From: Microcaecilia unicolor
Taxonomy: Eukaryota
Assembly (NCBI RefSeq): GCF_901765095.1
Contig: NC_044044.1
Location: forward strand, 26,632,132 to 26,696,131
DNA length: 64,000 nucleotides
Direction of reading: 5' to 3'
Shown: positions 38,467 to 63,877 of the stretch, piece after piece
How the letters are laid out: each line of letters begins with the position of its first letter
How positions within the stretch are numbered: the first letter of the stretch is position 1
Position numbers and translations under genes: made by a program
The notes under the pieces: model-generated
The model's input: only the letters and a program-made list of their open reading frames with translations
What the model was told of the DNA's origin: nothing
Database searches by the model: none

Positions 38467-38649
38467 GTATCAAAGCAGTCTGTCTGTCTGTCTGTCTTCA
38501 CTCTTCCTGTACCTCTCTGAATCTGTCTTCTGATTTCTCTTGTAATACTATTTCCTTGTACCATAATGGTGACATTATTTTCTGGGTTAAAATATTTATT
38601 TATTTATTTGGCATACTTGATACCGCCCAGTGGCCTACATAGAGACTTC

Positions 38650-39600: not shown

Positions 39601-40181
39601 ATAGAGAAAAAAACAGAGGCAGCTATGCTGGGGGAGTTACTGGAGTTGAGGAAAAGGCAGATGAGATTAAGTGAGTTTTCTGGACCTGTTCGAATGCTGC
39701 AAGGGGGGGTGGGGGGTTGATCTCTAATGTGGCAGGGGAGGTCAATGCAAAGTTTGGGGCCGATGTACCTGAAGGCAGAGTGGAGGGAGATACTGAGATG
39801 GAGGAGGAAGGGGGGAGGGAAGGGAGGTTGTGGTCAGCAGAACAGAGGAAGGGCAGCGGGGTGTAGGGAATGAGCAGATCATTGAGGTAAACAGGGGGAA
39901 GGAGGGGTTCGAGAGTTGTAGATTTTATATTTGATTAGGACAATAACGGGTTAACCAGCGTTCTGCATAGAGGAGGAATGTGGCATGGTCGAAACGGTGT
40001 GCGTTCTGAAGGTGTCCAAAAGAGCTGAACACCTGAAGAGACTTGGGTGGAAGGGGCAGCCTGTCAGATTCCCTCAGCACAGCGAGGGAACAATCCCAGA
40101 TTCTTCTGCAAGGCATCTTTCTCTGTAAACAATGTTACTTCTTGGTAATCTGCTGTCTCGATACCTTTTCTCTTGCTCCAG

Positions 40182-40313
40182 ATGAGAGTGAATCCCAGAG
40201 CAGAGGGTACGGATCAGATGGGAGCCGGATTTTCTCTGGCAAAGACTGTCCATACTGCGGCAAATCTTTCCGATCCTCACACCATTTAAAGGTGCATCTC
40301 CGAGTGCACACAG
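40182..40313 (+). CDS. ZNF219: ZNF219-like coding exon 2, encoding (D)[43 protein letters not shown](G)
   Basis: Acceptor tctcttgctccag|AT and donor ACAG|GTAAGAT. It matches the human ZNF219 segment [26 protein letters not shown]. The phase is consistent with both flanking exons. Confidence 0.85.
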
Positions 40314-40439
40314 GTAAGATGTATGGTCTCTGGAGCTCTTGATGTTTTCAGCCCGCTGTGTTCTCTGCATTTTTCTGGAGTCTTCACCAAATTTATTATT
40401 TTTTTTTTTACATCCTCTGCAGGGGTGGACTGAGGGTGG

Positions 40440-40880
40440 TCTTTGCCCCATGCCTGGCCACTGCCCGACACCCCCCTGCCGCCACAGCCGATGTCCCCAC
40501 TGCCCCGGACTTTCCTGAGGGATCCTGGTAGTCTGGTGGCCTCTGGGAGGGGGGGGGGGCATATTCTTTCCTGCCTGCTGCGGTGCTGCTATTCCCCCAC
40601 CTGCTGGCATCACCATGTTTTCAAAATGGCAGCCAAAATTTCCCACTGTAGTCCTGCGGGTCTCGACAGTCTCATGAGACTTCTGCAGGAAGGGGAATAG
40701 TGGCAGCCCAGCGAGCCAGGCAGGAAAAAACATGTTCCCCCCGCTGAGGCCATTAGATCATCAGCAGTGTGCCAGGCATCTGGGCAGAGCCTCTGGGCCC
40801 CCTAGAACCTCTTGACCCTTGGGCACTGCCCGGTTGCCCGAATGGTCAGTTCGCCCCAAGGGAGGGGGATATAGAAACCC
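40440..40880. mobile_element. Palindromic MITE-like element, copy 2 (same family as 30560-31100), in ZNF219 intron 2
   Basis: It shares the blocks tggtggcctc(t/c)ggg, ctttcctgcct(g/t)ctgc, ttttcaaaatggc and ctcatgagact(t/g)ctg. Its flank ...caaccgggcagtgcccaagggtcaagaggttctagggggcccagaggctc is the reverse complement of the 30630-30690 flank of copy 1. Confidence 0.6.
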
Positions 40881-41082
40881 CTAGGTAGCTATGAACAAGA
40901 GAGAAAATGGTATTAGGAAATTGTCCCTATCTTCCTCCAATAAAAATTTGCAAAATGGCCTCATGGTGGCAGTGCCAGTTCTGGACTGCAGTTCTCGGCT
41001 TTCATCACTAGAGGGGGCATGTTAGTCCAGCTGCTGCCCACTAACCAAGCCTTTACAGTTTTCTTGTTTCTTTCTTCCCTAG

Positions 41083-42116
41083 GTGAGCGCCCCTATAAGT
41101 GCCCGCACTGCGACTATGCAGGCACACAGTCTGGATCACTGAAATACCACCTGCAGCGTCATCACCGTGAGCAGAAAGTGGTGGCCAGTGGACGGACAGC
41201 AGGCGTCAAAGTGCCCTCCCCCTACCAGCATACCTTGCTGGTGCAAACTGGGAGGTATCACAGCTTCTACCTCCCCCAGCACTGGGCAGCTGCACAACTC
41301 ACACCAGTGAGGGCTGTGGATGAGAAGCCCGGGAGGCAGAGGGTGCCCTCTACTGGTGCTAGCAGTCTTGGAGACGTTGGCCCAACTTTCTCAGACCTCG
41401 CCAAGGTCTTCCAGAATCTGTCGGAGAGCGAGAGCCACCTGAAGGAGGAGCCACTGCCACCATCATCCCTGGCAGTCCCTGTTTGTATGCTGGAAAAGCA
41501 AGAAGACAAGGTAGGAGGGAAAAGACGGAGACAGCCGCCACCACCCCAGCCCCAGCAAGAAGCAGATGTGCCCTCTCCACCTCCACCACGCGTTTCCCGG
41601 AGAAAACCGGCAAGCACAAGTCGTGTGATCACCAACGGGAAGCCAGACTTCGAGCCTCTAGATCTCTCGTGGCGGCCACCGGCATCACCAGGCATGGACA
41701 GCGAAGTCACCCTTCATCGTTGCCCCTTTTGCCCTTTTGCTACCTCCTCTCCAGAGCTGATGGCACTTCATCTGCAGGTTCACCATAGCCGAAGGTCCCT
41801 CAGGAAGGAGAGGACCCCAAGAGGGCCTATCAAAAATGACACTGATACCACCAATGCCTTCCTTGGAAAGGCAGGGACCCACCTGCTCTCTGGAGATTGT
41901 GAGATGGTGGAGGATCTGGGTCAAGGACTGAAGGAGGACGAGGAGGAGGAGGAGGAGGAAGGCGAGAGCCCAGAAGCATTGGAGGAGAGAGACATGGATG
42001 GGAAGGAGACGCCGAAAAAAGGAGCAAAGCAGGAGAATGGAGTTCAGGGTTACTTAAGCAGAAGCAACTCAGAAGAGGAGGAAGCAGAGGGGGAGAGGCT
42101 TCCTGAGCATCGGTAG
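41083..42116 (+). CDS. ZNF219: ZNF219-like terminal coding exon, encoding (G)ERPYKCPHCDYAGTQSGSLKYHLQRHHREQ...LHRCPFCPFATSSPELMALHLQVHHSRR...EHR*
   Basis: Acceptor tttcttccctag|GT. It matches the human ZNF219 C-terminal fingers (ERPYKCPHCDYAGTQSGSLKYHLQRHHRE; ALHRCLFCPFA..PELMALHLQVHHSRR). The stop codon TAG is at 42114-42116. An AATAAA lies about 470 nt downstream (about 42586). Confidence 0.85.
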
Positions 42117-44519
42117 GGGGTAGTGCAGAGAACTAAATTCTAGTCCAGCATCTTCCTACCCCACGCCCCAGCAAAGGTCACGTCTCAGAGTCACTGTGAG
42201 GACTTTAAATGAAAAATAGGTACATTTTACCCATGATGCCTTCTGCCCTCATCTCCCACATATGTGTCCTCCCCCTGATGCCCCTTACTTATCACAGTGA
42301 TTTCTTCCAGGAGGTGGGGGGAGGAAGTGGGACAGTGGAAATGAGGAAATTGAATGACAGGTAAAGAAGGACTAATGATTTACAAAAAACAAACAAACTA
42401 ATTTTATATCTAAAATTTCAGATCTTGTGAGGGTTGGAATTGAACAGTTTATGAGACAAGAGTTTTAGAGCTTTGTGCAGGGGTTTTCGGGGGGGGGGGG
42501 GGGGTTAGATCATGAACCCTGAAGAGGGTGGATGCTGTTCTGCTTCCCAGCTGAAATTCCCTGGGGATAGTTTTAAAAAATTAATAAACCAAATCTGGTC
42601 TAGGATGTTTACTGGGGATCTGGCGTAGGTGGGGACAGAAGGGGGTGGCAGTGGAAAATGTACTTTAGCCTTTGATATGAAACACTGACTAACAAAGATT
42701 ACAAAGCTACTGGGAGTTTTTGGAATGGGGTAGTAGGGGGCACAGAAGTGATCTGGGTGTTTAACTGCCTCACAGGTTGCAGTTCCAGCTGACAGCCACA
42801 CGATGGCAATATCACTCCATTTCCTGACTTGCACAATGGCTGCCATTGAGCCGCCATTCCCAGACAGTATTGTGCTAGCCACTCTTCAAAAAGGTAATTA
42901 ATTACAGTTACTAGTTACTTCTCTGCTTTAAAGTAATTAGATACAGTAATTAAATTAAGAAAATTGTTGATTACTGATTACAGTTACTTGCTTAGAGTAA
43001 CTAGTTGCTTTTCCTTTACCGTTACCACATCCAAGAATACTTATGGCATGTGAAGAGGGAAAATATCCATCTTATGTGCAACCCCCCAATGCAAACATTG
43101 CATAACTTCACCTCTTAATGCTTATTTCAATGAGGTTTGACCAACTCATGCCAACCACATCCTCTATCATGTCATGTCATGTTGTGCTAGTTAACTCTTC
43201 AAAAATAATTAATTACAGTTACTGGCATAGTGAATAAGCGGTAATTCAATATCGCACAGCATTGCTACCAGACAATGAAACTTTTATATTTTAAGAGGGG
43301 AGGGATGTTGGACTATAATTCCCCTCCCCCCACACACATGCATTTGATCATCAAAATGTATAAAATTACATATTTAGCCATGCTTTTTAAGTCCCTGGGG
43401 AGCAAGGTTGATGTAGTCCTGGATTTACTCCATTGCATGCAGGGACTTCTAAGTCTTGCTTTTCTTAGGGGATGCACTACAAGCCCCTGCATGCACCGGG
43501 GTAAATCCAGGACTGAATTGACCCTGTCAGGTAAATCTGGATCCAGCTGGCAACCGTTACTGGGGAAAGGAGTGGGCATCCTGTGTAGGGTTACCCTATG
43601 GCTCCAGAAAAAAAGGCAGACACATTGATCCAGTCCGGGTTTTGCTTCCATTGAAAGCAATGGAAGTAAAACCCAGACTGGCTCGATCTGCCCTCCTTTT
43701 TTTGGAGCCATAGGGTAACCCTAATCCTGTGGCACCCATGGCGTGATACCGTCATTCCACATCAGAAGTTACCTGAAAAAAATAGGAAACAAGGAAAAAA
43801 TAATCATTTAAGAAATAAAAAAAAATGGCCTGTACAGATTTTCAAATCCTTACCTCAACTCTTGAGCGTGTGCTCTTGGAGAAAGGAAAGCAGAAACAAA
43901 TTTAGCTGAACTCTTGTATCCCCACCTTCTGTTGTATGTTACTGCCCATTGTTAAGGTCTCTAGGTCCTAGCTTGAAAACCTAAAAGTGGGAGTCCACCC
44001 TTTCCTCATCTGATCCCCCGGTCTCCCTTCCAGAGATACAGGAAGGGAAGTATCCAGTGAATACAGGGGGCTGGGACAGCACAGGACAGGATAGACCCCC
44101 TGTAACATCCCTAACAAAGAGCTAAGAGATACAGGGGGGTAATCTTCAGCAAAGTGGGACAGGACAGAACCCATCACATCACTAGAGAGGGCATGAGAAG
44201 TACAGGGAAGTAATATCCACCTTTCTAATTTCAAGGGGCTGAGGGCCAGATGCACTGAACGAGCCAGCAACGTGGTTTTTAAACTGGTTCTAGCCAGTTT
44301 AGCGCGCAAGTAGTAAACCGGGACGTGCACAAAAGGGTTCTCCGAGCCATTTTCCTGTCACGGTAGCAGCTAACGAAAACGGAATGCAAATGAGCTCATT
44401 ACTATTATAATGTGAATGCGATGCGACGCACAACCGTTTCCGACCCCACGCACTGTGGAAAACCTAACGGGAGGTCTGCACCTCTCGTTGGGGCTGCTGT
44501 GAGCGGGACCCACGCAGAG

Positions 44520-44790
44520 GAGGACGCCCATCGCAAAAATCGGAAGCAAAAAAAAAAAGTCCAAGTGCTCGTCAGAGATGTCCTTTCAAGTGCTAACACT
44601 TGGACGTCCTTCACTCAAAAAAAAAAAAAGGACGTCCCTGACGAACACTTGGACGTTTTTTTTCTTCAGATTTTGTGATGGGCGTCCTTTTTGGACGTGT
44701 TTTTCTTACGTGCCCGAAATGACCACCGCCAGGGAGAATCGGGGATCGGGACGTGCGAGGACGTCCAAATCAAAACTATTTGGACGTCCC
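44520..44790. repeat. Cluster of about 7 GGACGTCC / TTGGACGT palindromic ACGT-core motifs within about 270 bp, with interspersed poly-A/T. It lies about 2.4 kb downstream of ZNF219.
   Basis: The motifs include cttggacgtccttcactc, aggacgtccctgacgaacacttggacgtttttttt, gggcgtcctttttggacgtgttttt, gaggacgtccaaatc and tttggacgtcccttt. Confidence 0.7.
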
Positions 44791-50009: not shown

Positions 50010-51263
50010 GTAAACGTTATTGCTGAGTGTTCTTCAGCGCTGACAGTCATACCCTAGGTAGGAGAATATAGGGCACCCCCAAGAAGCTGATCCAAATTGA
50101 AAACCTCCCTCTTCCCATCCACACAGCAGCCTCCAGTGTTTGGCTAGTTCAATAAAAGAGCAAATCCCTTGACCCTGTTGGTTGACCATTTTTTTTCTGG
50201 TCCCTTTCCCCGAGGGTGTTGGATCCAATTCCTTGGACCACACCACACCAATTAGAATCTCAGTCAATTAATTCAAATCTAACTGAAGTTAATAACCCAG
50301 TGATCACCTCCAGCAATTTTCATACTGAAACAAAAAAAAAAAGTGTTGTTATAGTCTCGTGACCTGGAGCCATCCACCTCTTCGCCTTCAAAATGGGAGC
50401 TCTGGTATGGCCCACCTCACATGACAAATGCGCTGGGCGGTTTCTGGGGTACACCCTATTTTCCTCTCCTGTTCTCTCTCTTTGAGGGGAGGAAGAGGGA
50501 GATACCGCCATGAAAGGAAGGGACTGGCCCCAGCTCTTAATAAAACCCGTAAACTATGCAGCAGGTATGCATGCCAGCTCAGAAACAGAGTAGGCATAGT
50601 GTTGAAAGAAAACTTAAGGGGGGGGGTGTGCATATTCAAAGTTAGTTTACCAGGTTGCAGAACTGCAGTTGACTGGGGCCACTGAAAATCATTGCAAGAC
50701 TCTGGGATTATTATCTCCCCCTCCTCGCCCCCCCCCCCCCCCCCCCCAGTTTGCAGACTGAATATGTTCCTAACCAGCTAAGTAGTGGCTCTGCCTAAAA
50801 TCTGCCCCCTAGACCACCCCTAAACTAGCTAGTTAGGGAATGGCCAGATAGTGCCGATATTCAGTGACCGGCCAGCTCAGTGAGGTTTAACTGGGCAGGA
50901 GCCGTTCCTGCCCAGTGAAGCCCCTTTGAATATTGACCCCTTCCAATACGTATCTGGTTTTCATTTTCCTACACAGTGTACATGTTGTGTGTATTTCCAT
51001 CCCATAATCACATCCTAATTCCACATACACCTGTCCCCCTCACCACTGTTCACCTTCTAAACACACCTTTCCATATCCTGCATTCATCCCACAGTATAAG
51101 GCAAGCTCCAAGTAGACTCTTCAGCTTGGAAACAGTCATGGTACTAATCGCGCCTTCATCTCATGGTGCATTCTTCATGGGTCCTGGTCTCCAGTTTGAG
51201 GACCATTTTTTTCTTGGACAATGACAGGTCTTGGGTGTTTCTCCTTGGCTCTCTTTCTTACAG

Positions 51264-51418
51264 TAGCCTCCAGGGTCCTGGATGGGTTCAGCGACCTACA
51301 GCTGCGCCGACTGACGATGCTGTACTGCCAACGGCTGGAGGATGCTACGGCAGAAGTCGCATGTGCTGTGGCATTCAGTCTCTACGCCAAGACCGTCATA
51401 TCCAAACTGGAATACGAG
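51264..51418 (+). CDS. NLRP-like gene, exon encoding the first half of an N-terminal death-fold (PYD-like) domain: (V)ASRVLDGFSDLQLRRLTMLYCQRLEDATAEVACAVAFSLYAKTVISKLEYE
   Basis: A strong polypyrimidine tract and acceptor precede it (ctccttggctctctttcttacag|). The donor is GAG|GTGTGT in phase 0. The LxxLxDxxLKKFKxxL-like pattern (LDGFSDLQLRRLTMLY) resembles PYD helix 1-2. The exon joins in frame to the next exon. Confidence 0.5.
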
Positions 51419-52563
51419 GTGTGTCTGTCTATCCCTCTCCATGGAGGGCTATAAAATCTGCTACGTGCATATCTGTGAAGATATCTGCTACGAACAGAGG
51501 TTAATAAACACACAAAAAAGGTCCCCCCTCCCAAGGTGGTGTATGAGATGTGGCCAACACTTTGGTGGGTTGATAGATAGAACCAATGAATAGATAAATG
51601 GATAGACTGATGAACAGCCATCTCTCTCTGGAGTGGAGTAATAGACTTTTCCACTGTTAACCTGTATACGTGTCGATCATTTCGAGGTGTGCATTTAGTT
51701 AACTATTTCAGTTTGGAAATTTTTTTTGTATGTAAAGAATACACACTGAATTGACTACACAATACAACCTCCAAAATAATATATGCAATAAGCTTTTAGC
51801 ACATCAATGACATTTTACACAGATTAATTTTCAAAAAGAACCAAAAAGTGCCTGAAAATAAACCAAAAAATGCTAAAAATGATGTAAAAATGAACCAAAC
51901 TTTTTTCTATGAATTACCCTATCATTTATCCATTCATATTCAGGGTGTAATACAAGATGCATCCACTCTGTCTCTTCATCCAACCATCTACCTCTGACGC
52001 AGAGTGGAAGATATGACCAATGTCTGTCCAGCGTAGAGTGTGAGGTGAATCCAAGGATTCACCCACCCTCCTGTCTCTGGGACAGAGTATGAATTGTACT
52101 GTGTCAGTCTGTCCATCCATGTCTTTAGATTCAGTGTAGTGGTTCCAGTCTCTCCCTGTATCTAACTACCTCTAGGATGAAGTTCAAGATATGTCCACTG
52201 TCCATTCTCCAAGGTTGAGAAAGAAGTGTCTGTAATACATATATCCATCTGTCTCCAGAGCACTGTATGAGATGTATCCAATTTCTGTCCATCCATCTGT
52301 TTTGCTTTCTCGGAAGTAGTATGAAGCTTATCAAATATCTGTTTCTTTACTCTGAATCTGGGGGACATTGGTGGTTCATAATCAAATTTTTTCAGTTCCC
52401 CAAAATCTTACTTCAGATCCCACCAGCTTGGTCCTCTCCTCTCCTAAATCATGTCTCAAACTGGACCCCACCATCAACATGGAGAGGACCCTGCTTTTGG
52501 AAAATAAGAGAGTATAATATTAATTCATGTGTCCCTTCTTTCCCCTCCCACCTTTCCCCACAG

Positions 52564-52732
52564 CAAATCACTGGTGCTGATGGTGACAAAGCGTCACAGC
52601 TCCTACTGAAGACAGTGCTGTCCAAGGAGGATGCCAAAGCTGCCCGAGCCATGTGGCAAAGCTTCACAGACTTCAGGGAAAACAATGCTTTTCTGAAGGT
52701 GAAAAGGATCCTACAGGAGATTGACGACAAGG
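52564..52732 (+). CDS. NLRP-like gene, exon encoding the second half of the PYD-like domain: QITGADGDKASQLLLKTVLSKEDAKAARAMWQSFTDFRENNAFLKVKRILQEIDDK(G)
   Basis: Acceptor cctttccccacag|CAA and donor G|GTATGG, leaving phase 1. The pattern ...DLA.LM...G.EEAW.....F..I....L... is typical of pyrin-domain helices 4-6 (compare NLRP3 and NLRP12 PYDs). The phase matches the NACHT exon. Confidence 0.55.
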
Positions 52733-52989
52733 GTATGGACCCCACAAGCATGGTGGAGGGAGAGAGTATCAGGTGGAACCATATCATCTAGTCAACCTAT
52801 AGGTTGATAGGTAACGGAGTTCAAACATGCGTGGGATATGCATAGAGGAATCCTGTGCAGAAGGAATGGATCCTCAGAAGCTTAGCTGAAATTGGGTGGC
52901 GGAGCAGGTGGGGGGAAGAGGGGGTGGTGATTGGGAGGAGAGGATAGAGGAGGGCAGACTTGTACGGTCTGTACCAGAGCCTGTGATGG

Positions 52990-53195: not shown

Positions 53196-53554
53196 CCATT
53201 CCCCTCTTTGACAGTATCACAATCCTGAGCTTCAAATCCGACTCTGCTGACTTTCAATTCACAGATTGCAGTTATTAAACCCTCTTATTTTGCACTCGAA
53301 CAAATTAATTCTTCCTTGACAACTTGGAAACCTTGGTTTTTGCTCTGATTCCAATTCGTATTGACTATTGCAATGCTGTTCACTTTGGCTCAAATCAGTC
53401 CTCCATAAACTGCAGCTCCTCCAGTGTCCAGATTATTTACTGGAACAATCCGAATGGATCATGTTACTCCGATCCCTACTTGACAACACTGATTTCTAAT
53501 CTCTTTCAGAACAAAACAACAAAAAAAAAAATCAATCAACTAGTTTTAGCGGAG

Positions 53555-53995
53555 TGGAGTGGAACAGGAGTGGAACAGGTGGATGTGAAGCGTCTGTTCA
53601 CACGTTCCAAAAATACTAGGACTAGGGGGCATGCGATGAAACTACAGTGTAGTAAATTTAAAACAAATCGGAGAAAATTTTTCTTCACCCAACGTGTAAT
53701 TAAACTCTGGAATTCGTTGCCGGAGAAAGTGGTGAAGGCGGTTAGCTTAGCAGAGTTTAAAAAGGGGTTGGACGGTTTCCTAAAGGACAAGTCCATAAAC
53801 CGCTACTAAACGGACTTGGAAAACTCCAAAATTCCAGGAATAACATGTATAGAATGTTTGTACGTTTGGGAAGCTCGCCAGGTGCCCTTGGCCTGGATTG
53901 GCCACTGTCGTGGACAGGATGCTGGGCTCGATGGACCCTTGGTCTTTTCCCAGTATGGCATTACTTATGTACTTATGTTCCTTTCCACCCATCAG
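53555..53995 (+). mobile_element. CR1 LINE 3' fragment
   Basis: ORF 53324..53809 ends ...[80 protein letters not shown]. It is followed by the CR1 3' UTR ...gccaggtgcccttggcctggattggccactgtcgtggacaggatgctgggctcgatggacccttggtcttttcccagtatggcattacttatgtacttatg. Confidence 0.85.
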
Positions 53996-55551
53996 CTCCA
54001 TACTACAAGATGGACCTGTGTTTTCACTTTTTGGCCCTGTAGAGTAGTATTCTCTTCTTCAGCACCTGAGAGGGAAACTAAATCAACCCTATTTCAAAAT
54101 GGCTTTGAAAAACTCTCCACTTCAGCATTGCGTATGGCTCTCTGTACTCTGCTCTCCTCCTCCTTTCAGATTCCTTTCCAATATTTCTTTTCTTGTAAAC
54201 CACTTTGCTGTGTCCCTACTCAAGGTTGAAAGACAGTATATGGATTCTTCCAATAAACTAAATTAAATTAATTAATTAAATACAGATTGGAGGGGGTTCG
54301 AGGATGAGAAAGCCAGTGCTTCAATTCATATCTTAGGACCTTGATTTTCAGTCCCAGTCCTTGAAGCTTAAGGGCCACCAACAGGTCAGGTTTTCGGGAT
54401 AAGATAAATTTACATTCCGATGAGGCAATACATGAAATCTCTCTTATGCATATTGATTGTGGATATCCTGAAAACTTGACTGGCTGGATGTGCCCTGAGG
54501 ACTGAGTTGATAAGCACTGCCTTGAGAGAGATCTGCATGTTTACTACCTCCATTATATGTAAATCTCTCTCATGCATATTTATTAGGGGTATCGTGAAAA
54601 CCTTGAGGACTAGGAGTGAAGACCAAGGTCTTTGGAAAAATATCAAAAGCGTAGGCCATAGAATTTCTCAATCCAGTCCTCAAGACCCACCCAGTCAGTC
54701 CGGTTTTCAGGATTTCTACAACAAATATGCCAAAAGCAAGATTTGCATACAAGGGTGGCCAGTGCATGCAAATCTCTCTCATATACATGCATTATGGGTA
54801 TTTTGAAAAGCAGTTTGGCTGTGCGTGCCAGAACGGTAGATGGATGCAAGGAAGGTGAATGGAAAGAGAATGGGCGGTAGAAGGAAAGAAGGAGCGAGAG
54901 AGAGAGATACCAAAAGACTGAGACAGATAGAAATGCATTGATAGAGAACAGGACGTATGAGCAGCATTGTCACCAGGGTTTGTTTTGGATGTTGCAGGAG
55001 ACTCTTTGCATAAGGAGATTAATTGGGCCCCTGATGAGGTTATTCAAGACTGCCTGGTAGGTAAGTGATTTGCACGTAGTAGTAGGGAAACCCTTGGGCA
55101 GGGTTAGGGTTCAGTCAAGGTCATAGGAGCCAACTTTTCAAAATTATTGGGGGTGCTAAGCCCAATGGAAATAATCCCTCCCTGGACACAAACAAGGAAT
55201 TTTTCCAATATTGGGGGTGCTCAAGCACCCACAGCACCCACAGAGTCGGCTCCAATGGTCAAGGTAGCGCTTCAACAAGTCCTTTCTTCAACATCAAGCA
55301 GGCCAGTATGGGCAGGGAGGGGAAGGAGCATAGGTGGGTAAAGAGGGAGCCTGGGTATGAACTGCATCCTTTCCTCATGTGATAATTTCGGGAAAGGGAA
55401 GAGGCAAGAGCCCTCTCCAGCCAGTTAAAGTCCTGTTAGATGAGGTGAGGGGTCTGTGCCACATGTCCAGAAAACAGACAGAAACAGGAAATCATCGCTG
55501 GAAAATAACTATTGTCCTTCTAATAACTATTTTTCCTTTCTTCTGATGAAG

Positions 55552-57277
55552 CCATCCATCGCCAGCACCAAGCGATCCTGAAGGAAAGGAATGCTACCCT
55601 AGCACTAACTTCTTTTCATGGCTGGACGTTGGAGAAGACCTTCCCACTGGACAAACATTTTACAGAGCTGCTCATCATCCCCTCCCTGAGGTACCAGGAG
55701 CAGGTGCAGCATGAGCTCCTTGCCCGTGGACGTGAACACGTTGAATGGCGCAAGCAAACCCTGCGCCGTGAGCTGGAGAAGGTCCGCCATCATGAGATCT
55801 TTGGCACCAGCTTTGGCAAGTGCACTCGCTGCCTTTATGCTGTGATCAGCGGTGTGGCTGGGATTGGCAAGACCACCCTGGTACAGAAAATAGTCCACGA
55901 CTGGGCAGTGGGCAAAATTTATGGGCAGTTCCACTTCCTTTTCCAGTTCAAGTTCCGGGAGCTCAACATCTACCAGGACAGGACCAGTCTCAAGCAGATC
56001 ATCCTAGACTCCTACCCCTACCTAGAGAAAGATCTCAAGAAGGTCTTGGCAAATACCAATAGGATCTTGTTAATTTTTGACGGACTAGATGAATTCCGGG
56101 AGCCGATAATTTTCCCTGACATTCAGGCTAAATCTCCAAACTCACAATCAAAGGGGGCCTCACATCTTTACCCCGAGAGCTGGTGCTCCATTCCGGACAT
56201 TATACGGGCTCTCTTTCAAGGGCAGATGTTGCCGGATTGTTCCGTGCTGGTGACCACACGGCCCACAGCCCTGGAGTCCTTGCAGATGGCACCTGTCCAC
56301 CTCTATGCTGAGATACTGGGCTTCTCTGATGCACAGATCAAAGACTACTTCTTGAAGTTCAACAGTGACACCAAGGTGTCCTTGGAGATGTTAACCTATG
56401 TGGAGGACAATGCCATCCTGTATACTATGTGCTACAACCCATCATACTGTTGGGTAATTTGTTCCTCCCTGGAAGCAACCTTCACCTCACCAAGAGTACG
56501 TGATTGGAGCCCACCCAAGACAATCACCCAGCTATATGCCAACTATATTCATAACATCCTGAAGAATCATTCCAGAGAAGCAGAGGAGCCAAGACAGCTA
56601 CTTCTGAAGACTGGAGAGATGGCCTACATGGGGGTGGCAGAGAAGGTCATTGTCTTCGGTGACCACCACTTCCATCGGTATGGCCTGCAGCCCAGCAACT
56701 TCCTCTCGGGTTTCCTCATGCAGATTCTACAGAAGGAGAACTCCTTGAAGGATGTGGTATACTCTTTCTTTCATCTCACAGTGCAGGAATTCCTGGCGGC
56801 CCTTGCCAAATTCTTCCAAACGCCTACTCCTAAACTGTCCCAGCTGTTGGATGAAACCAGCACCTCCAGGGATGGCCGGTATGAAATCTTCCTCCAGTTC
56901 ATGGCTGGCCTCTCCTGCCCAGCCACCACAGCCCAACTGAAGGACCTGATTGGAGAAGTTCCCCAAGGGAACGTCTGTAAAGTGGTAGACTGGATCAAAG
57001 AGAGGTTTGAAAGTGCCCAGGGCCATAAGATCCAGCTGCTGAACACATTACACTATCTGTTTGAGGCACAGAACAAGGCCCTGGTGCAGGAGACTATGGG
57101 CCAGGTCAGACAGGTGGATTTCAGCTTCCAGGTCATGTCACCTGTAGATTGCTACGTTCTGGCTGTGGTGCTTGGGCCCTGTCAGCAGCTGCAGAACCTC
57201 CATCTTTTCAACTGTTCGATCGAGTCCTGGGGAATGAAGAGCTTGAAGAGCGTGCTACACAAGTGTGTGACTGTAAG
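55552..57277 (+). CDS. NLRP-like gene, large NACHT (NOD) domain exon. It carries a Walker A motif (GVAGIGKTTL), a Walker B region (ILLIFDGLDEF), sensor 1 (LVTTRP), and winged-helix/HD (EILGFSDAQIKDYFLKF, ILYTMCYNPSYCWVICSSL).
   Basis: The supplied ORF 55629..57281 actually begins at a TTG, not an ATG. The frame is open from 55527. I place the acceptor at ...tttttcctttcttctgatgaag|CC, which is phase-compatible with the PYD exon. 55603 is an alternative with the same phase. The donor is AAG|GTAAGG at 57277/57278. The motif order and sequences resemble NLRP3/NLRP12 NACHT domains. Confidence 0.85.
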
Positions 57278-58299
57278 GTAAGGAACGCTGTAAGATTTGA
57301 AACAGTCCAGCTGACCCTTTTGTGTAAAAAGCAGAAGAGCGTTAAATCCATCCACTCCATGACTAAAATCTGCCCTTCTCTATAAGCTAGGGTCTTTTAA
57401 CTTCCCTTTTCAGAACCTAGGGCCTACAATTGACCCTTCTAAAAGCCTGAACCTAAGCTGCCCACCTCCCTTATCAACCAAGGGCCTAAAAACTCTCTCC
57501 CTCTTCAGAACTCGGAATCCAAACTTCTCCCTCTCCAAAGCCATAGTCTAAACAATCTCCCTCCCGTCTTCTGAAACCTGGCCCGCTCCTGAGTGTTGGT
57601 GTATGGAAAACCTGTGAGTATGAGGAAAGGTTATGATGGAGAGTGGAACAGGATAAGGGGCTTTATCAGAGGGGAACAATCTATTCTTCAAGCACCTGCC
57701 AAGGCGACAGTAATAAGTGTTTATTACTGCATAGATCAAGATATGTTGCTGGGGAACAAAGCATCCAAAAATGTCCATTACCAGGAAACAAACTCAGACT
57801 GGAGGGGGGGGGGGGGCTTTCTCTGTTTGTCTGTTTGAAAACATATAAGGGCAGGTCTGCTTTTACCCTACAGACACAGATTCATGCTGGAGGATAGGGC
57901 AGGTCTCCTTTAAACACTGCATCTGCTAATCTAATCCCGCAGAAAAGACAGTTCTCCTTTAACAATGAGCCTAGTTTCAAGGCAGGGCAGGTCTCTTTTG
58001 ACAGCATAGGGGCGATAAGAAACCATGTGCTTTATCACACCAACCTTTGAACCCTTATCCACAGTAAAGACCAGGAAGAACCAGCCTGAACCAAAACCAA
58101 TCAGGAGCCTTGGAAGGGATCACAGAGCACTCTTAAGCCCATCTGATTGGCTCCTGAGAATTAACTTTCTATGATGTCATAAAGCCTTTTTCATTCCTGC
58201 ATTCTGACTGGTTTTGAAGGTGTTAGTCATAATTCACTGGATTGGGTTTATAAAGCCTGAGGGTCATTTGCCTTTGGGTCACACACAGACATTGACAGA

Positions 58300-58800
58300 G
58301 CCGGGGGGCTTAGAACTGAGGCACAGGGAGATAAGTGACTCCCCCAGGAACACACACAGACCCTGCGCTCTAATCCCTGGCTCTTCATTGACTCTCTGTG
58401 AGATAAAGCAACTCCACCAGGGTCACAGCATAGGAAGCAGATAGCCGAAATGAGGATTAGGTCTCAGCAATCTGTAGTATGTTGGACACCTAGAGCCAAA
58501 GTTCCTTGTCTTGTCCTCCTGCTGTTCTCCTAACTTTCAGGCTCCTCTACGGAATTAGAATAAAGGCACAAGGAGATAAGTAACTCCTCCAGCATCACAC
58601 ACAGACCCTGCACTCTAATCCCTGGTTCTTCATTGACTCTCTGTGAGATAAAGCAACTCCACCAGGGTCACAGCATAGGAAGCAGATAGCCGAACTGAGG
58701 ATTAGGTCTCCGCAATCTGTAGTATGTTGGACACCTAGAGCCAAAGTTCCTTGTCTGCTCCTCCTGCTGTTCTCCTAACTTTCAGGCTCCTCTACGGCTC
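58300..58800 (+). repeat. Tandem duplication of about 240 bp (58380-58550 against 58620-58800) of a MIR-core-related segment, in the NLRP-like intron
   Basis: ctctaatccctgg(c/t)tcttcattgactctctgtgagataaagcaactccaccagggtcacagcataggaagcagatagccgaa.tgaggattaggtctc.gcaatctgtagtatgttggacacctagagccaaagttccttgtct...ctcctgctgttctcctaactttcaggctcctctacgg occurs twice at about 97% identity. Confidence 0.8.
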
Positions 58801-58871: not shown

Positions 58872-58958
58872 GTTGTCACAGAATAGATTGGGAGATCAGG
58901 GGGTGAAACTCCTGTGTGAAGCCCTGAGGAAGCCCGACTGTCAAATGCAGACTCTGGA
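58872..58958 (+). CDS. NLRP-like gene, LRR exon encoding (R)LSQNRLGDQGVKLLCEALRKPDCQMQTL(E)
   Basis: Acceptor cttcttcgcag|G and a perfect GTAAGT donor. This is a ribonuclease-inhibitor-type LRR of the NLRP kind (compare NLRP3 [28 protein letters not shown]). The phase is consistent with the NACHT exon. Confidence 0.7.
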
Positions 58959-59439
58959 GTAAGTAATACACTGTCACCCGCGTGCCCCCTGCCGCCCCAT
59001 AGTGCTATAGGCATCCCTTTTCAAAGACTCAGACAGCTGCATATCCTGCACCCAGGTAGATACAGAAAAATCTAGACACACGTGCAAAAAGAGGGAGAAA
59101 CCGATTACTCTGTAAATCGTATGGAAAGAGAGAGAGAAGATAGTCGAGTATCAAGAGAAATGCAGTCTGAGACCAAGAAGATGTGGCAGAAAGATACAGA
59201 AATATTTCCCATCATCTTGATCAGAAAGAATTTCCAAACACACCTGGACAGGTTGCCTATATGTGTTACATCTTACAAACGCCAGGTGAAAACTCACCAT
59301 GGCTCAGTACGAGCTCGACAGCGATTCTTAGCAGTAAATTTGAGGGACGGAGGTCATACTCCACAAGCCCTGGCTTAGGAGACAGGTTCATTCCTGTCTA
59401 GAAATGCACAACACTAACCCATTTGGAGAAACTGCCCCC

Positions 59440-60470
59440 CCCCCCCCCCAACGGTTTCCATCAAAAGGATTTTATTGAAGATACTACATATGAACAAATC
59501 GCCCGACACAGGCCGTGTTTCGCCCACCAAGGGCTGCGTCAGGGGCTAATTTGAAACCTTTGAGAAGGACCAATTGTAATGCATAATAGGCAAGAAAAAA
59601 CCAGCAGTCAGCAATCCTATTATCTCTAGCGCACACAGATAGATACACCGTTACTGAAGCTAAGGTTTCAAATTAGCCCCTGACGCAGCCCTTGGTGGGC
59701 GAAACACGGCATGTGTCGGGTGATTTGTTCATATACGGTATCTCAGTGGCGTTCCTAGGGGGGGGCGGTGGGTGCGGTCCGCCCCGGGTGCACGCCACCG
59801 GGGAGGTGTCACGCGTGCCTGCTCTCCGTTGTTCGATGCTTCTTCTCTGCCCTGGAACAGGTTACTTCCTGTTCCGGGGCAGAGAAAAAGCATCGAACAA
59901 CAGAGGAAAGGCGCGCGCGCGCGGCACCCCCCTGGCGGCGTGCACCCGGCGGGGGGGAGGGGGTTCCTTCGCGGGGGTGTCGTTTCGTCGGGGGGGGGGG
60001 GGTCTGCGCTGCATCGGGGGGGCGGGGCGCATCGGCGATCCGCCCCGGGTGCCAGCCCCCCTAGGAACGCCATTTCAGTGGTGTATCTATGGGGGGGCAC
60101 GGGGGCCTGGGCCCCCCCCCAAATTGGCTCTGGTGCCCCCAGTTTGGCTGGCAAAGGTCCCCGACCACAACCAGCTGAAGCGTTTATCTGTCCCGTGCTG
60201 GTCTTGCACTTGCCTCGTCTCCTGTTTCCAGTCGCGCCATGCGTGCTCTCATTTTAATGAAACTGAGCATGCCCGCACATGCTCAGTTTCATTAAGACGA
60301 GTGTGCAGTGCGCTACACGCTTCAGCTGGTGGGGGTTGGGGACCCCCACCAGCAAAGGTACCTGGTGGGGCCAGCAGGAGGGGGGGGGTCGGAAGCGGTG
60401 GGGGAGGCAGGCTAAAACGCATACTTTGGGCTCTGGACCACCGAGGTCTGGCTACGCCCCTGGTTTATTT
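59440..60470. repeat. GC-rich compound foldback: several nested perfect or near-perfect inverted repeats and G/C homopolymers, in the NLRP-like intron
   Basis: There is a 75-bp inverted repeat (59484-59560 against 59650-59730: tacatatgaacaaatcgcccgacacaggccgtgtttcgcccaccaagggctgcgtcaggggctaatttgaaacctt). cagtggcgttcctagggggg at 59745 pairs with cccccctaggaacgccatttcagtgg at 60056. A palindrome centred about 59868 reads ctctccgttgttcgatgcttcttctctgccctggaacagg / cctgttccggggcagagaaaaagcatcgaacaacagagg. A palindrome at 60250-60290 reads aatgaaactgagcatgcccgcacatgctcagtttcatt. ccagctgaagcgt at 60170 pairs with acgcttcagctgg at 60318. ORFs of 98-260 aa here are artefacts. Confidence 0.8.
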
Positions 60471-60660
60471 ATGAGGTTTTCTTGTAATGCTGCGAGGCAT
60501 TTTGTTTTTTTGTTTTTTTTTTTTAAAGAAAAGCATCATTTAAAGGTGTGTGTGTACTGGTTACTTACAGATATCCATATCCCTCTGTCCCCACCGTCTC
60601 CCTTCTCTTGTCCTCATTATCCCCCCCTTCCGTCATCCCTTTTCGTCTGTCCCCATCCAG

Positions 60661-60828
60661 GCTCTGGATGGTGAATCTTACGGATGGCTGCGTGGAGGAT
60701 CTCGCCAGTGCTCTGAGCACGAATGTTTCCATCAGAGACCTGAACCTGAGGGATAACGCCTTCACAGACCACTCTGTGCCCACCTTTCTGCACCTCGTGG
60801 AGAACTGCTCCGGGCTCCTTACCATCGA
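60661..60828 (+). CDS. NLRP-like gene, LRR exon encoding LWMVNLTDGCVEDLASALSTNVSIRDLNLRDNAFTDHSVPTFLHLVENCSGLLTI(E)
   Basis: Acceptor ccccatccag|G and donor GA|GTGAGC. The LRR pattern is of NLRP type B/A (L.L..C.LT..C...L..VL..N..L..LDL..N). The phase is consistent. Confidence 0.7.
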
Positions 60829-61049
60829 GTGAGCTGGCCTTCTGTCTGTCTGTCTTTCTGAGTTTAGGCATTTATAGGTGTCTTGGAGGGGTCTTGTGTG
60901 AGAATGTTTATTTATAGAGGGATGTGTGGATATATATTTTTAATGGGTGTTTATGGAAGGGGTATGTGTGTGTATTTAATCGTTTATATTTTTTTGAGTG
61001 CGTGCTTGTGTGGGGGTGTTTCTGTGTATATAAATGTGCATTTACTGTA

Positions 61050-63660
61050 TGTTTTCAAGTAGATGTTTAAGCTCATAGGTTTGAGTGTTTATGGAGGGAC
61101 AGTTGTGTTTTTAGCTGTTTATAGGAGTTTTGTTTTGGGTTGGGGTTTATGTGGGTACTTGTATATAGAGATATGTATATGTTTTAACGAGGGTGTTTAA
61201 GCTCATAGAATCGAGTGTTTATGAAGGGACAGTTGTGTTTTTAGCTGTTTATAGGGTTTTTTTGGGGGGGGAGGGGGTGTTTTTACGTGGGGGTTTGTAT
61301 ATAGAGATATGTATATGTTTTAATGAGGGTGTTTAAGCTCATAGAATCGAGTGTTTATGAAGGGACAGTTGTGTTTTTAGCTGTTTATAGGGTTTTTTTT
61401 GGGGGGGAGGGGGTGTTTTTACGTGGGTGTTTGTATATAGAGATATGTATATGTTTTAACGAGGGTGTTTAAGCTCATAGAATCGAGTGTTTATGAAGGG
61501 ACAGTTGTGTTTTTATCTGTTTATAGGGTTTTTTGGGGGGAGGGGGTGTTTTTACGTGGGGGTTTGTATATAGAGATATGTATATGTTTTAATGAGGGTG
61601 TTTAAGCTCATAGAATCGAGTGTTTATGAAGGGACAGTTGTGTTTTTAGCTGTTTATAGGGTTTTTTTGGGGGGGGGGGGGGGTGTTTTTACATGGGTAT
61701 TTGTATATAGAGATATGTATATGTTTTAACGAGGGTGTTTAAGCTCATAGAATCGAGTGTTTATGAAGGGACAGTTGTGTTTTTAGCTGTTTATAGGGGG
61801 TTTTTTGGGGGGGGAGGGGGTGTTTTACGTGGGTGTTTGTATATAGAGATATGTATATGTTTTAATGAGGGTGTTTAAGCTCATAGAATCGAGTGTTTAT
61901 GAAGGGACAGTTGTGTTTTTAGCTGTTTATAGGGTTTTTTTGGGGGGGAGGGGGTGTTTTAAGTGGGTGTTGTATATAGATATGTATATGTTTTAACGAG
62001 GGTGTTTAAGCTCATAGAATCGAGTGTTTATGAAGGGACAGTTGTGTTTATAGCTGTTTATAGGGTTTTTTTTGGGGGGGGAGGGGGTGTTTTTACGTGG
62101 GTGTTTGTATATAGAGATATGTATATGTTTTTATGTGGGTGTTTAAGCTCATAGAATCGAGTGTTTATGAAGGGACAGTTGTGTTTTTAGCTGTTTATAG
62201 GGTTTTTTTGGGGGGGGGAGGGGGTGTTTTTACATGGGTGTTTGTATATAGAGATATGTATATGTTTTAACGAGGGTGTTTAAGCTCATAGAATCGAGTG
62301 TTTATGAAGGGACAGTTGTGTTTTTAGCTGTTTATAGGGTTTTTTTTTGGGGGGGGGGAGGGGGTGTTTTTACGTGGGTGTTTGTATATAGAGATATGTA
62401 TATGTTTTAATGAGGGTGTTTAAGCTCATAGAATCGAGTGTTTATGAAGGGACAGTTGTGTTTTTAGCTGTTTATAGGGTTTTTTTTGGGGGGGAGGGGG
62501 TGTTTTTACGTGGGTGTTTGTATATAGAGATATGTATATGTTTTAACGAGGGTGTTTAAGCTCATAGAATCGAGTGTTTATGAAGGGACAGTTGTGTTTT
62601 TAGCTGTTTATAGGGTTTTTTTTGGGGGGGGGAGGGGGTGTTTTTACGTGGGTGTTTGTATATAGAGATATGTATATGTTTTAACGAGGGTGTTTAAGCT
62701 CATAGAATCGAGTGTTTATGAAGGGACAGTTGTGTTTTTATCTGTTTATAGGGTTTTTTGGGGGGGAGGGGGTGTTTTTACGTGGGGGTTTGTATATAGA
62801 GATATGTATATGTTTAACGAGGGTGTTTAAGCTCATAGAATCGAGTGTTTATGAAGGGACAGTTGTGTTTTTAGCTGTTTATAGGGTTTTTTTTGGGGGG
62901 GGAGGGGGTGTTTTTACATGGGTATTTGTATATAGAGATATGTATATGTTTTAACGAGGGTGTTTAAGCTCATAGAATCGAGTGTTTATGAAGGGACAGT
63001 TGTGTTTTTAGCTGTTTATAGGGGTTTTTTTGGGGGGGGGGGGGGTTGTTTTTACGTGGGTGTTTGTATATAGAGATATGTATATGTTTTAATGAGGGTG
63101 TTTAAGCTCATAGAATCGAGTGTTTATGAAGGGACAGTTGTGTTTTTAGCTGTTTATAGGGTTTTTTTTTTGGGGGGAGGGGGTGTTTTTACGTGGGTGT
63201 TTGTATATAGATATGTATATGTTTTAACGAGGGTGTTTAAGCTCATAGAATCGAGTGTTTATGAAGGGACAGTTGTGTTTTTAGCTGTTTATAGGGTTTT
63301 TTTTGGGGGGGAGGGGGTGTTTTTACGTGGGTGTTTGTATATAGAGATATGTATATGTTTTTATGTGGGTGTTTAAGCTCATAGAATCGAGTGTTTATGA
63401 AGGGACAGTTGTGTTTTTAGCTGTTTATAGGGTTTTTTTTGGGGGGGGAGGGGGTGTTTTTACGTGGGTGTTTGTATATAGAGATATGTATATGTTTTAA
63501 CGAGGGTGTTTAAGCTCATAGAATCGAGTGTTTATGAAGGGACAGTTGTGTTTTTAGCTGTTTATAGGGTTTTTTTTGGGGGGGGGAGGGGGTGTTTTTA
63601 CGTGGGTGTTTGTATATAGAGATATGTATATGTTTTTATGTGGGTGTTTAAGCTGATAGA
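61050..63660 (+). repeat. Satellite-like tandem array: about 137-bp unit, about 19 copies, about 2.6 kb, each unit containing a T(n)G(n)AGGGGG run. It fills most of the last NLRP-like intron.
   Basis: The unit is gagggtgtttaagctcatagaatcgagtgtttatgaagggacagttgtgtttttagctgtttatagggtttttttgggggggagggggtgtttttacgtgggtgtttgtatatagagatatgtatatgttttaac. Copy starts are spaced 135-140 bp apart from about 61190 to about 63640. A degenerate leader lies at 60880-61190. Confidence 0.9.
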
Positions 63661-63777
63661 TGTTTATGCAGGATGTGTCTTTGTGTGCGCAAACTTGTGA
63701 AGGTTTTTAAAGACGTTTGTGACTCTCTGATACTGTTTTATCACACCCACACAGTTTCTCTTTTCTTGCACTTGCAG

Positions 63778-63877
63778 CCTCTGCAATAATCCATTCAGTG
63801 GAGTAGGCTGCCAGAAGTTGAAATTGTTCGAGGAGAAGTTGAGACGCACCCGGCACGGATTAAAGATTAAAGTCTGA
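63778..63877 (+). CDS. NLRP-like gene, putative terminal exon encoding (D)LCNNPFSGVGCQKLKLFEEKLRRTRHGLKIKV*
   Basis: Acceptor ttgcacttgcag|C in the correct phase. The stop codon TGA is at 63875-63877. The sequence is a plausible LRR C-terminal cap, but there is no independent homology, so the true 3' end could lie elsewhere. Confidence 0.5.

What the first reader, a model, noticed from the sequence alone, without database searches (positions are those of the whole stretch)
59440..60470. Compound GC-rich foldback with at least five nested perfect palindromes inside an NLR intron
Within about 1 kb there is a 75-bp perfect inverted repeat, plus an outer inverted repeat (cagtggcgttcctagggggg / cccccctaggaacgccatttcagtgg) enclosing inner palindromes centred at about 59868 and about 60268. 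G and C homopolymers of 10-14 nt lie at the junctions. Such architecture is typical of foldback-type DNA elements or of hairpin-capped excision scars. It is not a plain CpG island, because the symmetry is too exact. Similar but distinct foldbacks occur at 8540-9110 and 30700-30955.
Basis: seen in the sequence. Interest (0 to 1): 0.5.

Follow-up and report, generated by a model that had tools for sequence, protein, structure and literature searches.

The report
Three hairpin-forming transposon relics in intron
The "compound foldback" is three separate hairpin-forming repeat elements lying side by side in an intron of an NLRP3-like immune gene of the caecilian Microcaecilia unicolor, most likely decayed non-autonomous DNA transposons, which is ordinary for this repeat-rich genome.

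Summary
The inverted repeats are real and far beyond chance, but they are neither perfect nor one nested structure. The window is Microcaecilia unicolor. The segment lies in the 1,688-bp intron between two LRR exons of an NLRP3-like gene.

It resolves into three abutting modules:
- A (59479-59743): a stem-loop with 82-nt arms, 77/82 paired, longest perfect run 49.
- B (59744-60075): GC 71%, 20-nt terminal inverted repeats (TIRs) beginning CAGTGG, and an imperfect central palindrome.
- C (60076-60462): begins with a third copy of B's TIR (19/23) directly against B's right TIR, and has its own two-tier palindrome.

The palindrome near 60274 is therefore not enclosed by B's outer repeat. G/C homopolymers occur throughout the window and are not junction-specific.

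Best reading: a cluster of decayed non-autonomous TIR elements, hAT-like for B and C. The support is by analogy. The "similar foldback" at 30615-31085 has CAGGG termini and a perfect 8-bp target-site duplication (TSD). It also has a second copy at 40420-40858 that shares the palindromic core.

Not shown: other genomic copies or TSDs for A, B or C. No further M. unicolor DNA could be reached. Interest is low.

The parts
58970..60657 (+). Intron of the NLRP3-like gene (between two LRR exons, 58876-58969 and 60658-60833) that contains the whole structure
   Evidence: tblastn of P0001 (XP_030043237, 100% identical) maps the exons. GT and AG splice sites are seen. The orthologous Rhinatrema intron is about 520 bp.
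59435..59449 (+). C15 homopolymer 30 nt upstream of element A. It is not demonstrably part of any element.
   Evidence: It is one of 39 such runs in the window, and their flanks are unrelated.
59479..59743 (.). Element A: 265-bp stem-loop. Arms are 59479-59560 and 59662-59743 (82 nt, 77/82, longest perfect run 49), with a 101-nt loop. GC 47%, CpG o/e 0.83.
   Evidence: (dG -102 kcal/mol, z -20.1). There is no TSD of 5 nt or more within +/-12 nt of its ends.
59744..60075 (+). Element B: 332-bp GC-rich (71%) TIR element, hAT-like
   Evidence: Left TIR is CAGTGGCGTTCCTAGGGGGG. The right TIR reverse-complement is AAATGGCGTTCCTAGGGGGG, 18/20 with 17 contiguous. Fold z -10.6. CpG o/e 0.90.
59744..59766 (+). 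B left terminal inverted repeat
59779..59954 (.). B central imperfect palindrome, centre 59864/5. Inner arms are 50 nt at 86%, outer arms 40 nt at 80%, 70/87 overall.
   Evidence: Only sub-threshold generic miRNA-hairpin matches were found in Rfam.
60056..60075 (-). B right terminal inverted repeat. Its last 3 nt differ from the left TIR.
60076..60462 (+). Element C: 387-bp module that starts with a third TIR copy. It appears older (CpG o/e 0.47). Its right boundary is uncertain.
   Evidence: fold z -7.1
60076..60098 (+). C left TIR, CAGTGGTGTATCTATGGGGGGGC. It is 19/23 identical to B's left TIR and directly abuts B's right TIR, forming a reversed-ends junction.
   Evidence: It is the best non-self match in the whole window. 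The null expectation is 0.01 such matches per 128 kb.
60144..60356 (.). C palindrome. Outer arms are 60144-60186 and 60314-60356 (43 nt, 79%). Inner arms are 60248-60271 and 60278-60301 (24 nt, 92%, centre 60274/5).
60447..60462 (-). Candidate, weakly supported right TIR of C, or of a B+C composite. Its reverse complement is CAGGGGCGTAGCCAGA, 11/16 to B's left TIR.
   Evidence: It is not significant on its own.

Best explanation
The segment is a cluster of three adjacent, decayed, non-autonomous DNA-transposon relics (MITE-like elements). They were probably gained in this intron in the Microcaecilia lineage, after its split from Rhinatrema.

The three elements:
- B and C belong to one hAT-like group. 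Their termini begin CAGTGG or CAGGGG, the hAT 'YARNG' type.
- Each carries its own imperfect central palindrome.
- They sit tail-to-head, with B's right TIR touching C's left TIR.
- A is a separate stem-loop element of unknown superfamily.

How such elements work (inferred, not shown here):
- A transposase encoded elsewhere binds the TIRs, cuts the element out and pastes it elsewhere.
- The central palindromes are part of the transposing unit. They probably arose as inverted duplications during template-switching gap repair of a longer parent element.

Likely present state (inferred): the three are inert passengers of the intron. They are co-transcribed with the NLR pre-mRNA, where they can fold into three independent long hairpins. 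No function is indicated.
For: Shown:
1. The inverted symmetry is far beyond chance.
2. Three homologous TIR copies sit exactly at the module boundaries. The third is the best non-self match in 64 kb. About 0.01 such matches are expected per 128 kb of matched composition.
3. The termini start CAGTG or CAGGG.
4. In the same window, the analogous 'foldback' at 30615-31085 has CAGGG.../...CCCTG termini flanked by a perfect 8-bp direct repeat, GCAGTGGG. The match extends to 11/11 nt.
5. That element has a second copy at 40420-40858 in opposite orientation. It aligns at 74% over the whole length, including the palindromic core. So a central palindrome can be part of a mobile family here.
6. A third foldback (8554-9094) has 21/23 TIRs flanked by TA.
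7. The orthologous Rhinatrema intron is about 520 bp against 1,688 bp, and A+B+C span 984 bp.
8. Arm mismatches are mostly transitions, several at CpG sites. This fits decay in the genome rather than assembly error.
9. No ORF in the segment has any homologue, as expected for non-autonomous elements.

From the literature: about 69% of this genome is repeats (PMC10195157).
Against: - No second copy of A, B or C in the 64-kb window or in 29 kb of Rhinatrema.
- No statistically meaningful TSD for A, B, C, B+C or A+B+C. The best are 7/8 matches, of which about 0.24 per scan are expected by chance.
- B's right TIR has a mutated tip (AAA in place of CAG), and C's right TIR is weak (11/16).
- B and C touch with no duplicated target between them, which simple successive hAT insertions do not predict.
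- The introns of the two species do not align, so a deletion in Rhinatrema is not excluded.
- Genome-wide copy number, the key criterion for a transposon family, could not be tested. M. unicolor DNA was not retrievable. The protein-database proxy has no power, because its positive control also returned nothing.
Confidence: 0.6

Rival explanations
1. One composite element rather than three. B+C, or A+B+C, is a single family-level unit that moves using the outer ends (59744 and 60462). The abutting inward-facing TIRs at 60056-60098 would then be an internal relic. They could come from an old adjacent insertion, from a circle or dimer junction, or from 'reversed-ends' alternative transposition as described for Ac/Ds.
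For: - B's right TIR and C's left TIR abut with 0-3 nt between them and no TSD.
- A candidate outer right TIR, CAGGGGCGTAGCCAGA, lies at 60447-60462.
- A 7/8 direct repeat, TTTATTGA / TTTATTTA, flanks the entire A+B+C block.
- The bioRxiv preprint 10.1101/2020.01.07.897926 (abstract only) concerns alternative transposition of Ac/Ds. That it uses the ends of two nearby elements and yields composite or inverted structures is taken from my own recall, not from the paper.
Against: - The outer ends are only 11/16 complementary.
- The 7/8 flank match is at chance level given the offsets tried.
- A's left end and C's right end are not inverted repeats of each other.
- CpG o/e differs strongly between B (0.90) and C (0.47), suggesting different ages.
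Confidence: 0.15
2. Locus-specific palindromic rearrangement. The hairpins would have arisen in place, through inverted duplication by replication template switching or fold-back repair in a GC-rich, homopolymer-rich intron. They would never have been mobile.
For: - There are no other copies and no TSDs in the DNA available.
- A roughly 26-50-nt direct repeat (59750-59799 and 60007-60060) flanks B's palindrome, and B's palindrome incorporates part of it. This looks like local duplication.
- Slippage-prone G/C runs are abundant.
Against: - It does not explain three homologous 20-23-nt termini of hAT type placed exactly at the module boundaries.
- Structurally analogous elements in the same window are demonstrably inserted and multi-copy.
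Confidence: 0.17
3. Functional intronic hairpin or regulatory element. The hairpins would be a miRNA or endo-siRNA precursor, or B would be an intronic CpG-island promoter, exapted from repeats.
For: - The sense-strand RNA folds into three long hairpins.
- 59824-59905 resembles palindromic miRNA precursors structurally (mir-3910 and mir-4773, 47-50 bits).
- B has GC 71% and CpG o/e 0.90.
- MITE hairpins are known sources of miRNAs, for example Made1 and mir-548 (PMC1784062).
Against: - All Rfam matches are far below the gathering scores (about 48 against 95-100). They hit both strands equally and many unrelated families, which is generic hairpin similarity.
- Nothing in the window passes at gathering threshold.
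- There is no conservation in the Rhinatrema ortholog.
- No expression data are available.
Confidence: 0.05
4. Assembly artefact of the PacBio CLR-based assembly, such as a chimeric fold-back read or a mis-polished homopolymer region.
For: - The assembly used CLR reads with Arrow and freebayes polishing (PMC10195157).
- Homopolymer lengths are error-prone.
Against: - The arms are short (24-82 nt) and lie inside a contig.
- They differ by substitutions, mostly transitions, rather than indels.
- Similar structures recur as diverged copies elsewhere in the window.
Confidence: 0.03

Closest known systems
Non-autonomous hAT-superfamily elements and hAT MITEs (for example Ds, and the mammalian MER1/Charlie-type elements such as MER5A, whose ends read CAGTGG...; that sequence is from my own recall)
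   Same: - Size of 330-390 bp and no coding capacity.
- TIRs of about 20 nt beginning CAGTG or CAGGG.
- Location in an intron.
- A neighbouring element with similar ends (30615-31085) has the diagnostic 8-bp TSD.
   Different: - No 8-bp TSD can be shown for B or C.
- B's right tip is mutated.
- Copy number is unknown.
- The cores are long GC-rich palindromes.
- Two elements abut end-to-end.
Foldback (FB) elements of Drosophila and FB-like elements
   Same: Long inverted repeats that let the element snap back into a hairpin.
   Different: - FB arms are hundreds to thousands of bp and are built from tandem sub-repeats, with 9-bp TSDs (established knowledge).
- Here the arms are 24-82 nt and non-repetitive, and no such TSD is seen.
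MITE-derived miRNA hairpins (Made1 / hsa-mir-548; PMC1784062)
   Same: A short palindromic transposon relic inside a transcribed intron, able to fold into a long RNA hairpin.
   Different: There is no evidence of processing, conservation or membership of any Rfam miRNA family.
Ac/Ds composite structures (double Ds, reversed-ends alternative transposition, circle junctions)
   Same: Two transposon ends of one family lie in reversed orientation directly against each other (60056-60098). Internal inverted duplications are present.
   Different: B and C have unrelated interiors. No associated flanking deletion or duplication can be assessed. This is a resemblance only.

Membership tests
hAT superfamily (non-autonomous) | Short TIRs (about 10-25 bp) whose tips fit 5'-YARNG | tested here: met
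   B-left is CAGTG..., C-left is CAGTG... and the C-right reverse complement is CAGGG.... B-right's tip is mutated to AAATG.
hAT superfamily (non-autonomous) | 8-bp target-site duplication flanking the TIRs | tested here: not met
   No 8-mer match better than chance for B, C or B+C. It is met for the neighbouring element at 30615-31085 (GCAGTGGG on both sides).
hAT superfamily (non-autonomous) | A related autonomous element with a hAT transposase in the same genome | not testable with these tools
   No further M. unicolor DNA could be retrieved.
MITE (miniature inverted-repeat transposable element) | Small size (under about 800 bp), no coding capacity, TIRs | tested here: met
   A is 265 bp, B 332 bp and C 387 bp. 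ORF translations have no homologues. TIRs and arms are shown.
MITE (miniature inverted-repeat transposable element) | Many dispersed copies with conserved ends and TSDs | not testable with these tools
   There are 0 extra copies in 64 kb plus 29 kb. External scans are uninformative, and the positive control for the protein proxy failed.
Foldback (FB) elements | Long inverted repeats composed of tandem sub-repeats | tested here: not met
   TRF finds no tandem array between 59400 and 60500, and the arms are unique sequence.
Foldback (FB) elements | 9-bp TSD | tested here: not met
Rfam miRNA precursor families (mir-3910, mir-4773 and others) | Score at or above the family's gathering threshold | tested here: not met
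   Best score is 49.6 bits against a threshold of 95. Both strands score equally and many unrelated families match. Nothing passes at gathering threshold.
CpG island (Gardiner-Garden criteria) | Over 200 bp, GC over 50%, CpG o/e over 0.6 | tested here: met
   B is 332 bp, GC 71%, o/e 0.90. This is a formal match only. It fits a young CpG-rich insertion as well as an unmethylated island.

The most novel reading that the evidence does not exclude
Several unrelated TIR families in this caecilian each carry a long GC-rich central palindrome with G/C homopolymers:
- hAT-like B, C and F3.
- The TA-flanked F2.

In addition, two same-family ends abut in reversed orientation. This could reflect either of two things:
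- A lineage-specific process that repeatedly builds palindromic cores inside DNA transposons, for example hairpin-primed or template-switch gap repair after excision.
- A palindromic module that spreads among MITEs.

Either would create a genome-wide supply of intronic long hairpins, including in immune genes.
Probability: 0.1. Interest if true: 0.45.

Novelty: new member of a known kind. Interest (0 to 1): 0.15.

Why it matters
It matters little on its own. It documents that a caecilian NLRP3-like gene carries about 1 kb of hairpin-forming transposon relics in an LRR-region intron.

Such inserts can affect:
- splicing,
- formation of double-stranded RNA from the pre-mRNA,
- local DNA stability.

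They can also seed small-RNA loci. There is no evidence for any of these here.

The broader pattern may be worth a genome-wide look by someone annotating caecilian repeats. That pattern is GC-rich palindromic cores in several DNA-transposon families, together with very frequent G/C homopolymers.

Tried and rejected
Searches for other copies:
- Self-blastn of 59400-60500 against the window found only the internal inverted matches.
- Mismatch-tolerant searches for the TIR, the internal repeat and the A arm found nothing else.
- The metagenome scan with B's 16-nt TIR core gave 76 hits. All were chance or belonged to an unrelated repeat in sample Ga0307489, sharing only 16-19 nt.
- Scans of genome contigs and viral contigs with A-arm and B-TIR words gave 0 hits.
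- A six-frame translation of A+B+C searched against 5.8 billion protein clusters gave 0 hits.
- The 260-aa ORF searched against 1.84 billion representatives gave 0 hits.
- The positive control with the demonstrably multi-copy F3 plus F2 also gave 0 hits. These absences therefore say nothing about copy number.

Attempts to fetch more caecilian DNA:
- All M. unicolor look-ups failed.
- Two of the three Rhinatrema look-ups also failed. Only the Rhinatrema ortholog was obtained.
- Its intron is not alignable, so there is no clean empty site.

Other checks:
- Literature search for the terminal sequences as text returned only unrelated primers.
- Rfam gave nothing at gathering threshold and only generic hairpin matches in E-value mode.
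- No tRNA or SINE head was found.
- A TSD scan over +/-12 nt at every candidate boundary found several 6-8-nt repeats: GTATCT, TGGTGTAT/TGGTTTAT and TTTATTGA/TTTATTTA. All are at chance frequency.

Readings considered and dropped:
- A Helitron reading (A|TC...CTGG|T). It cuts through A's arm and lacks a convincing 3' hairpin.
- Homology between the interiors of B and C, or with F2 and F3. Local alignment scores were not above shuffles, apart from low-complexity G-runs and CTG tracts.
- PolyG/C runs as tails of one repeat family. Their flanks are unrelated.

Full report
**Source and setting.**
- The NACHT-domain exon at 55629-57281 is 100% identical to NLRP3-like isoform X2 of the caecilian Microcaecilia unicolor (P0001). 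It is 91% and 90% identical to Geotrypetes and Rhinatrema orthologues.
- tblastn of P0001 places + strand exons at 51257-51418, 52546-52734, 54985-55062, 55551-57278, 58876-58969, 60658-60833 and 63770-63874.
- The finding therefore lies wholly in the 1,688-bp intron 58970-60657 between two LRR exons.
- About 69% of this 4.7-Gb genome is repeats. DNA transposons are about 20-fold less abundant than retrotransposons (PMC10195157).

- The repeat finder and self-blastn recover five inverted-repeat pairs.
- Folding as single-stranded DNA gives -102 kcal/mol (z -20.1) for 59470-59752, z -10.6 for 59738-60090 and z -7.1 for 60083-60470. No shuffle folds as well.
- Nothing is perfect over its length. 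The large stem has 82-nt arms with 5 mismatches and a longest perfect run of 49. B's core is 70/87. C's inner pair is 24 nt at 92%.
- Most mismatches are transitions, several at CpG sites. This is what decay in a genome looks like, and it argues against an assembly artefact.
- The homopolymers are C15, G8, G13, C9 and G9. All but the C15 run sit inside the modules. The window contains 39 G/C runs of 8 nt or more with unrelated flanks, so they are a property of this genome and not of the junctions.

**Anatomy.** The segment is three modules side by side.
- *A (59479-59743)* is a simple stem-loop with a 101-nt loop.
- *B (59744-60075)* has GC 71%.
  - Its left end is CAGTGGCGTTCCTAGGGGGG. Its right end, reverse-complemented, is AAATGGCGTTCCTAGGGGGG.
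  - It has a two-tier palindrome centred at 59864/5.
  - A roughly 26-50-nt direct repeat lies at 59750-59799 and 60007-60060.
- *C* begins at 60076, directly after B's right TIR, with CAGTGGTGTATCTATGGGGGGGC.
  - This is 19/23 identical to B's left end, and both alignments start at position 0.
  - It is the best non-self match to that 23-mer anywhere in the window. Random sequence of B+C composition gives 0.01 such matches per 128 kb.
The palindrome at 60274/5 belongs to C and is not enclosed by B's repeat.
- A possible fourth TIR (reverse complement CAGGGGCGTAGCCAGA, 60447-60462) is only 11/16 and is not significant alone.
- As RNA, the sense strand folds into three independent hairpin domains.

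**What are they?** Direct evidence for mobility of A, B and C could not be obtained.
- There is no second copy in the window or in the 29-kb Rhinatrema orthologous locus.
- No TSD is better than chance. 8-mers with at most one mismatch are expected about 0.24 times per boundary scan.
- Indirect evidence favours transposon relics, as follows.
  - First, the three homologous termini at the module boundaries start with CAGTG or CAGGG, the hAT-type tip. That this tip is typical of hAT, and that MER5A ends read CAGTGG, is from my own recall.
    - Its ends are CAGGGATAGACT... and ...AGTCCACCCCCTG.
    - It is flanked by a perfect 8-bp direct repeat, GCAGTGGG. The match runs 11/11 because the flank happens to repeat the last 3 nt.
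    - A second copy lies at 40420-40858 in the opposite orientation and aligns at 74% over its full length, palindromic core included.
    - This shows that, in this genome, hAT-like non-autonomous elements with central palindromes are real, mobile, multi-copy units.
  - Third, the foldback at 8677-8904 lies inside an element, 8554-9094, with 21/23 TIRs and TA on both sides.
  - Fourth, the orthologous Rhinatrema intron is about 520 bp. The 984 bp of A+B+C accounts for most of the difference. The introns do not align, so this fits insertion but does not prove it.

**Relative ages (inferred).**
- CpG o/e is 0.83 in A, 0.90 in B and 0.47 in C, against 0.34 for the window.
- A's arms are 94% identical and B's TIRs are nearly perfect. 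C's ends are degenerate.
- So C is probably oldest, and A and B younger.
- B's palindrome is only about 80% paired although B keeps its CpGs. This suggests the imperfect palindrome was inherited from the family's master copy rather than decayed in place.

**Open problem.**
- B and C touch with no duplicated target between them. Two ordinary successive hAT insertions do not predict this.
- Either the pair is one composite unit, or one element integrated at the very tip of the other, or the junction descends from a reversed-ends or circle-type event. Such events are known from Ac/Ds biology by my own recall; 10.1101/2020.01.07.897926 (abstract only) concerns the same system.
- This cannot be resolved without genomic copies.

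**Rivals.**
- *Purely local palindromic rearrangement* is the main rival (about 0.17). It fits the absence of copies and TSDs and the internal direct repeat. It does not explain three hAT-type termini at the boundaries.
- *A functional hairpin RNA or CpG-island role* is unsupported.
  - Rfam matches on 59824-59905 score about 48 bits against thresholds of 95-100.
  - They hit both strands and many unrelated families, and nothing passes at gathering threshold.
- *Assembly artefact* is unlikely for the reasons given above.
- *'Hairpin-capped excision scars'* is rejected. hAT footprints are a few nucleotides long (established knowledge).
- *Foldback-family membership* fails on arm structure and TSD.

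**What led nowhere.**
- The metagenome scan for B's TIR core gave chance hits plus an unrelated repeat in one sample.
- Scans of prokaryotic genomes and viral contigs gave nothing.
- Six-frame protein searches of A+B+C gave nothing. The positive control with F2+F3 also gave nothing, so these searches have no power here.
- Four look-ups for M. unicolor loci failed.
- Text search for the terminal sequences found only primers.
- No tRNA-like head was found.

**Verdict.**
- This is a real but ordinary feature: a cluster of hairpin-forming, most likely hAT-like/MITE-type transposon relics in an NLR intron.
- Novelty: a new member of a known kind. Interest is low (0.15).
- The only mildly unusual aspects are the reversed-ends TIR junction and the recurrence of GC-rich palindromic cores in unrelated TIR families of this genome. 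A genome-wide repeat analysis would settle both quickly.

Noticed in passing
window 30607-31093 and 40420-40858: A hAT-like non-autonomous element lies at 30615-31085. Its ends are CAGGG.../...CCCTG, it has a perfect 8-bp TSD (GCAGTGGG) and it has a central palindrome. A second, diverged copy in opposite orientation aligns at 74% identity and shares the palindromic core.
   Followed up: yes
window 8554-9094: A 541-bp element has TIRs CCTTGTTTCCCCGAAAATAAGAC (21/23), TA on both sides and repeated 'ctaggtcttattttcgggg' subterminal motifs. Its central palindrome (8677-8904) has 107-nt arms at 93%. It looks like a Tc1/mariner-type MITE.
   Followed up: partly
whole window (for example 14110, 29208, 30372, 42489, 50728): There are 39 G or C homopolymers of 8-20 nt in 64 kb, with unrelated flanking sequences. 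Runs this frequent would not be expected by chance.
   Followed up: partly
window 21858-22650 and 23492-25170: Two minisatellite arrays, 66 bp x12 (C/A-rich) and 92 bp x18 (G/T-rich), lie in inverted orientation to each other at about 66% identity, roughly 840 bp apart. This explains the sharp GC-skew flip at 22-25 kb. The arrays create long spurious His-rich ORFs.
   Followed up: partly
window 61064-63660 and 58319-58797: The neighbouring NLR introns also hold tandem repeats. A 136-bp unit x19 (94% matches, G-rich with G8-G15 runs) lies downstream, and a 245-bp unit x2 lies upstream.
   Followed up: no
window 33381-33977 and 53324-53809: Two ORF fragments look like the C-terminal part of CR1-type LINE reverse transcriptases (…[24 protein letters not shown]…). 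This is a resemblance by eye only and was not searched.
   Followed up: no
window 36066-42116: Long ORFs encode C2H2 zinc-finger motifs (858 aa and 365 aa), presumably exons of a zinc-finger gene upstream of the NLR gene. They were not characterised.
   Followed up: no
window 43403-43526 and 44521-44688: Two further short inverted-repeat structures have arms of 49 nt at 80% and 33 nt at 76%. They may be additional MITE-like elements.
   Followed up: no
loci L003, L008, L020, L023, L059 and others (metagenome Ga0307489): One metagenome sample holds many contigs with a repeat of its own, ...ctacagtaggac...tatGGCGTTCCTAGGGGGGgg...gagcgaggtacccctgta. It shares only 16-19 nt with B's TIR. It is apparently a repeat of some eukaryotic microbe and is unrelated to the finding.
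   Followed up: partly
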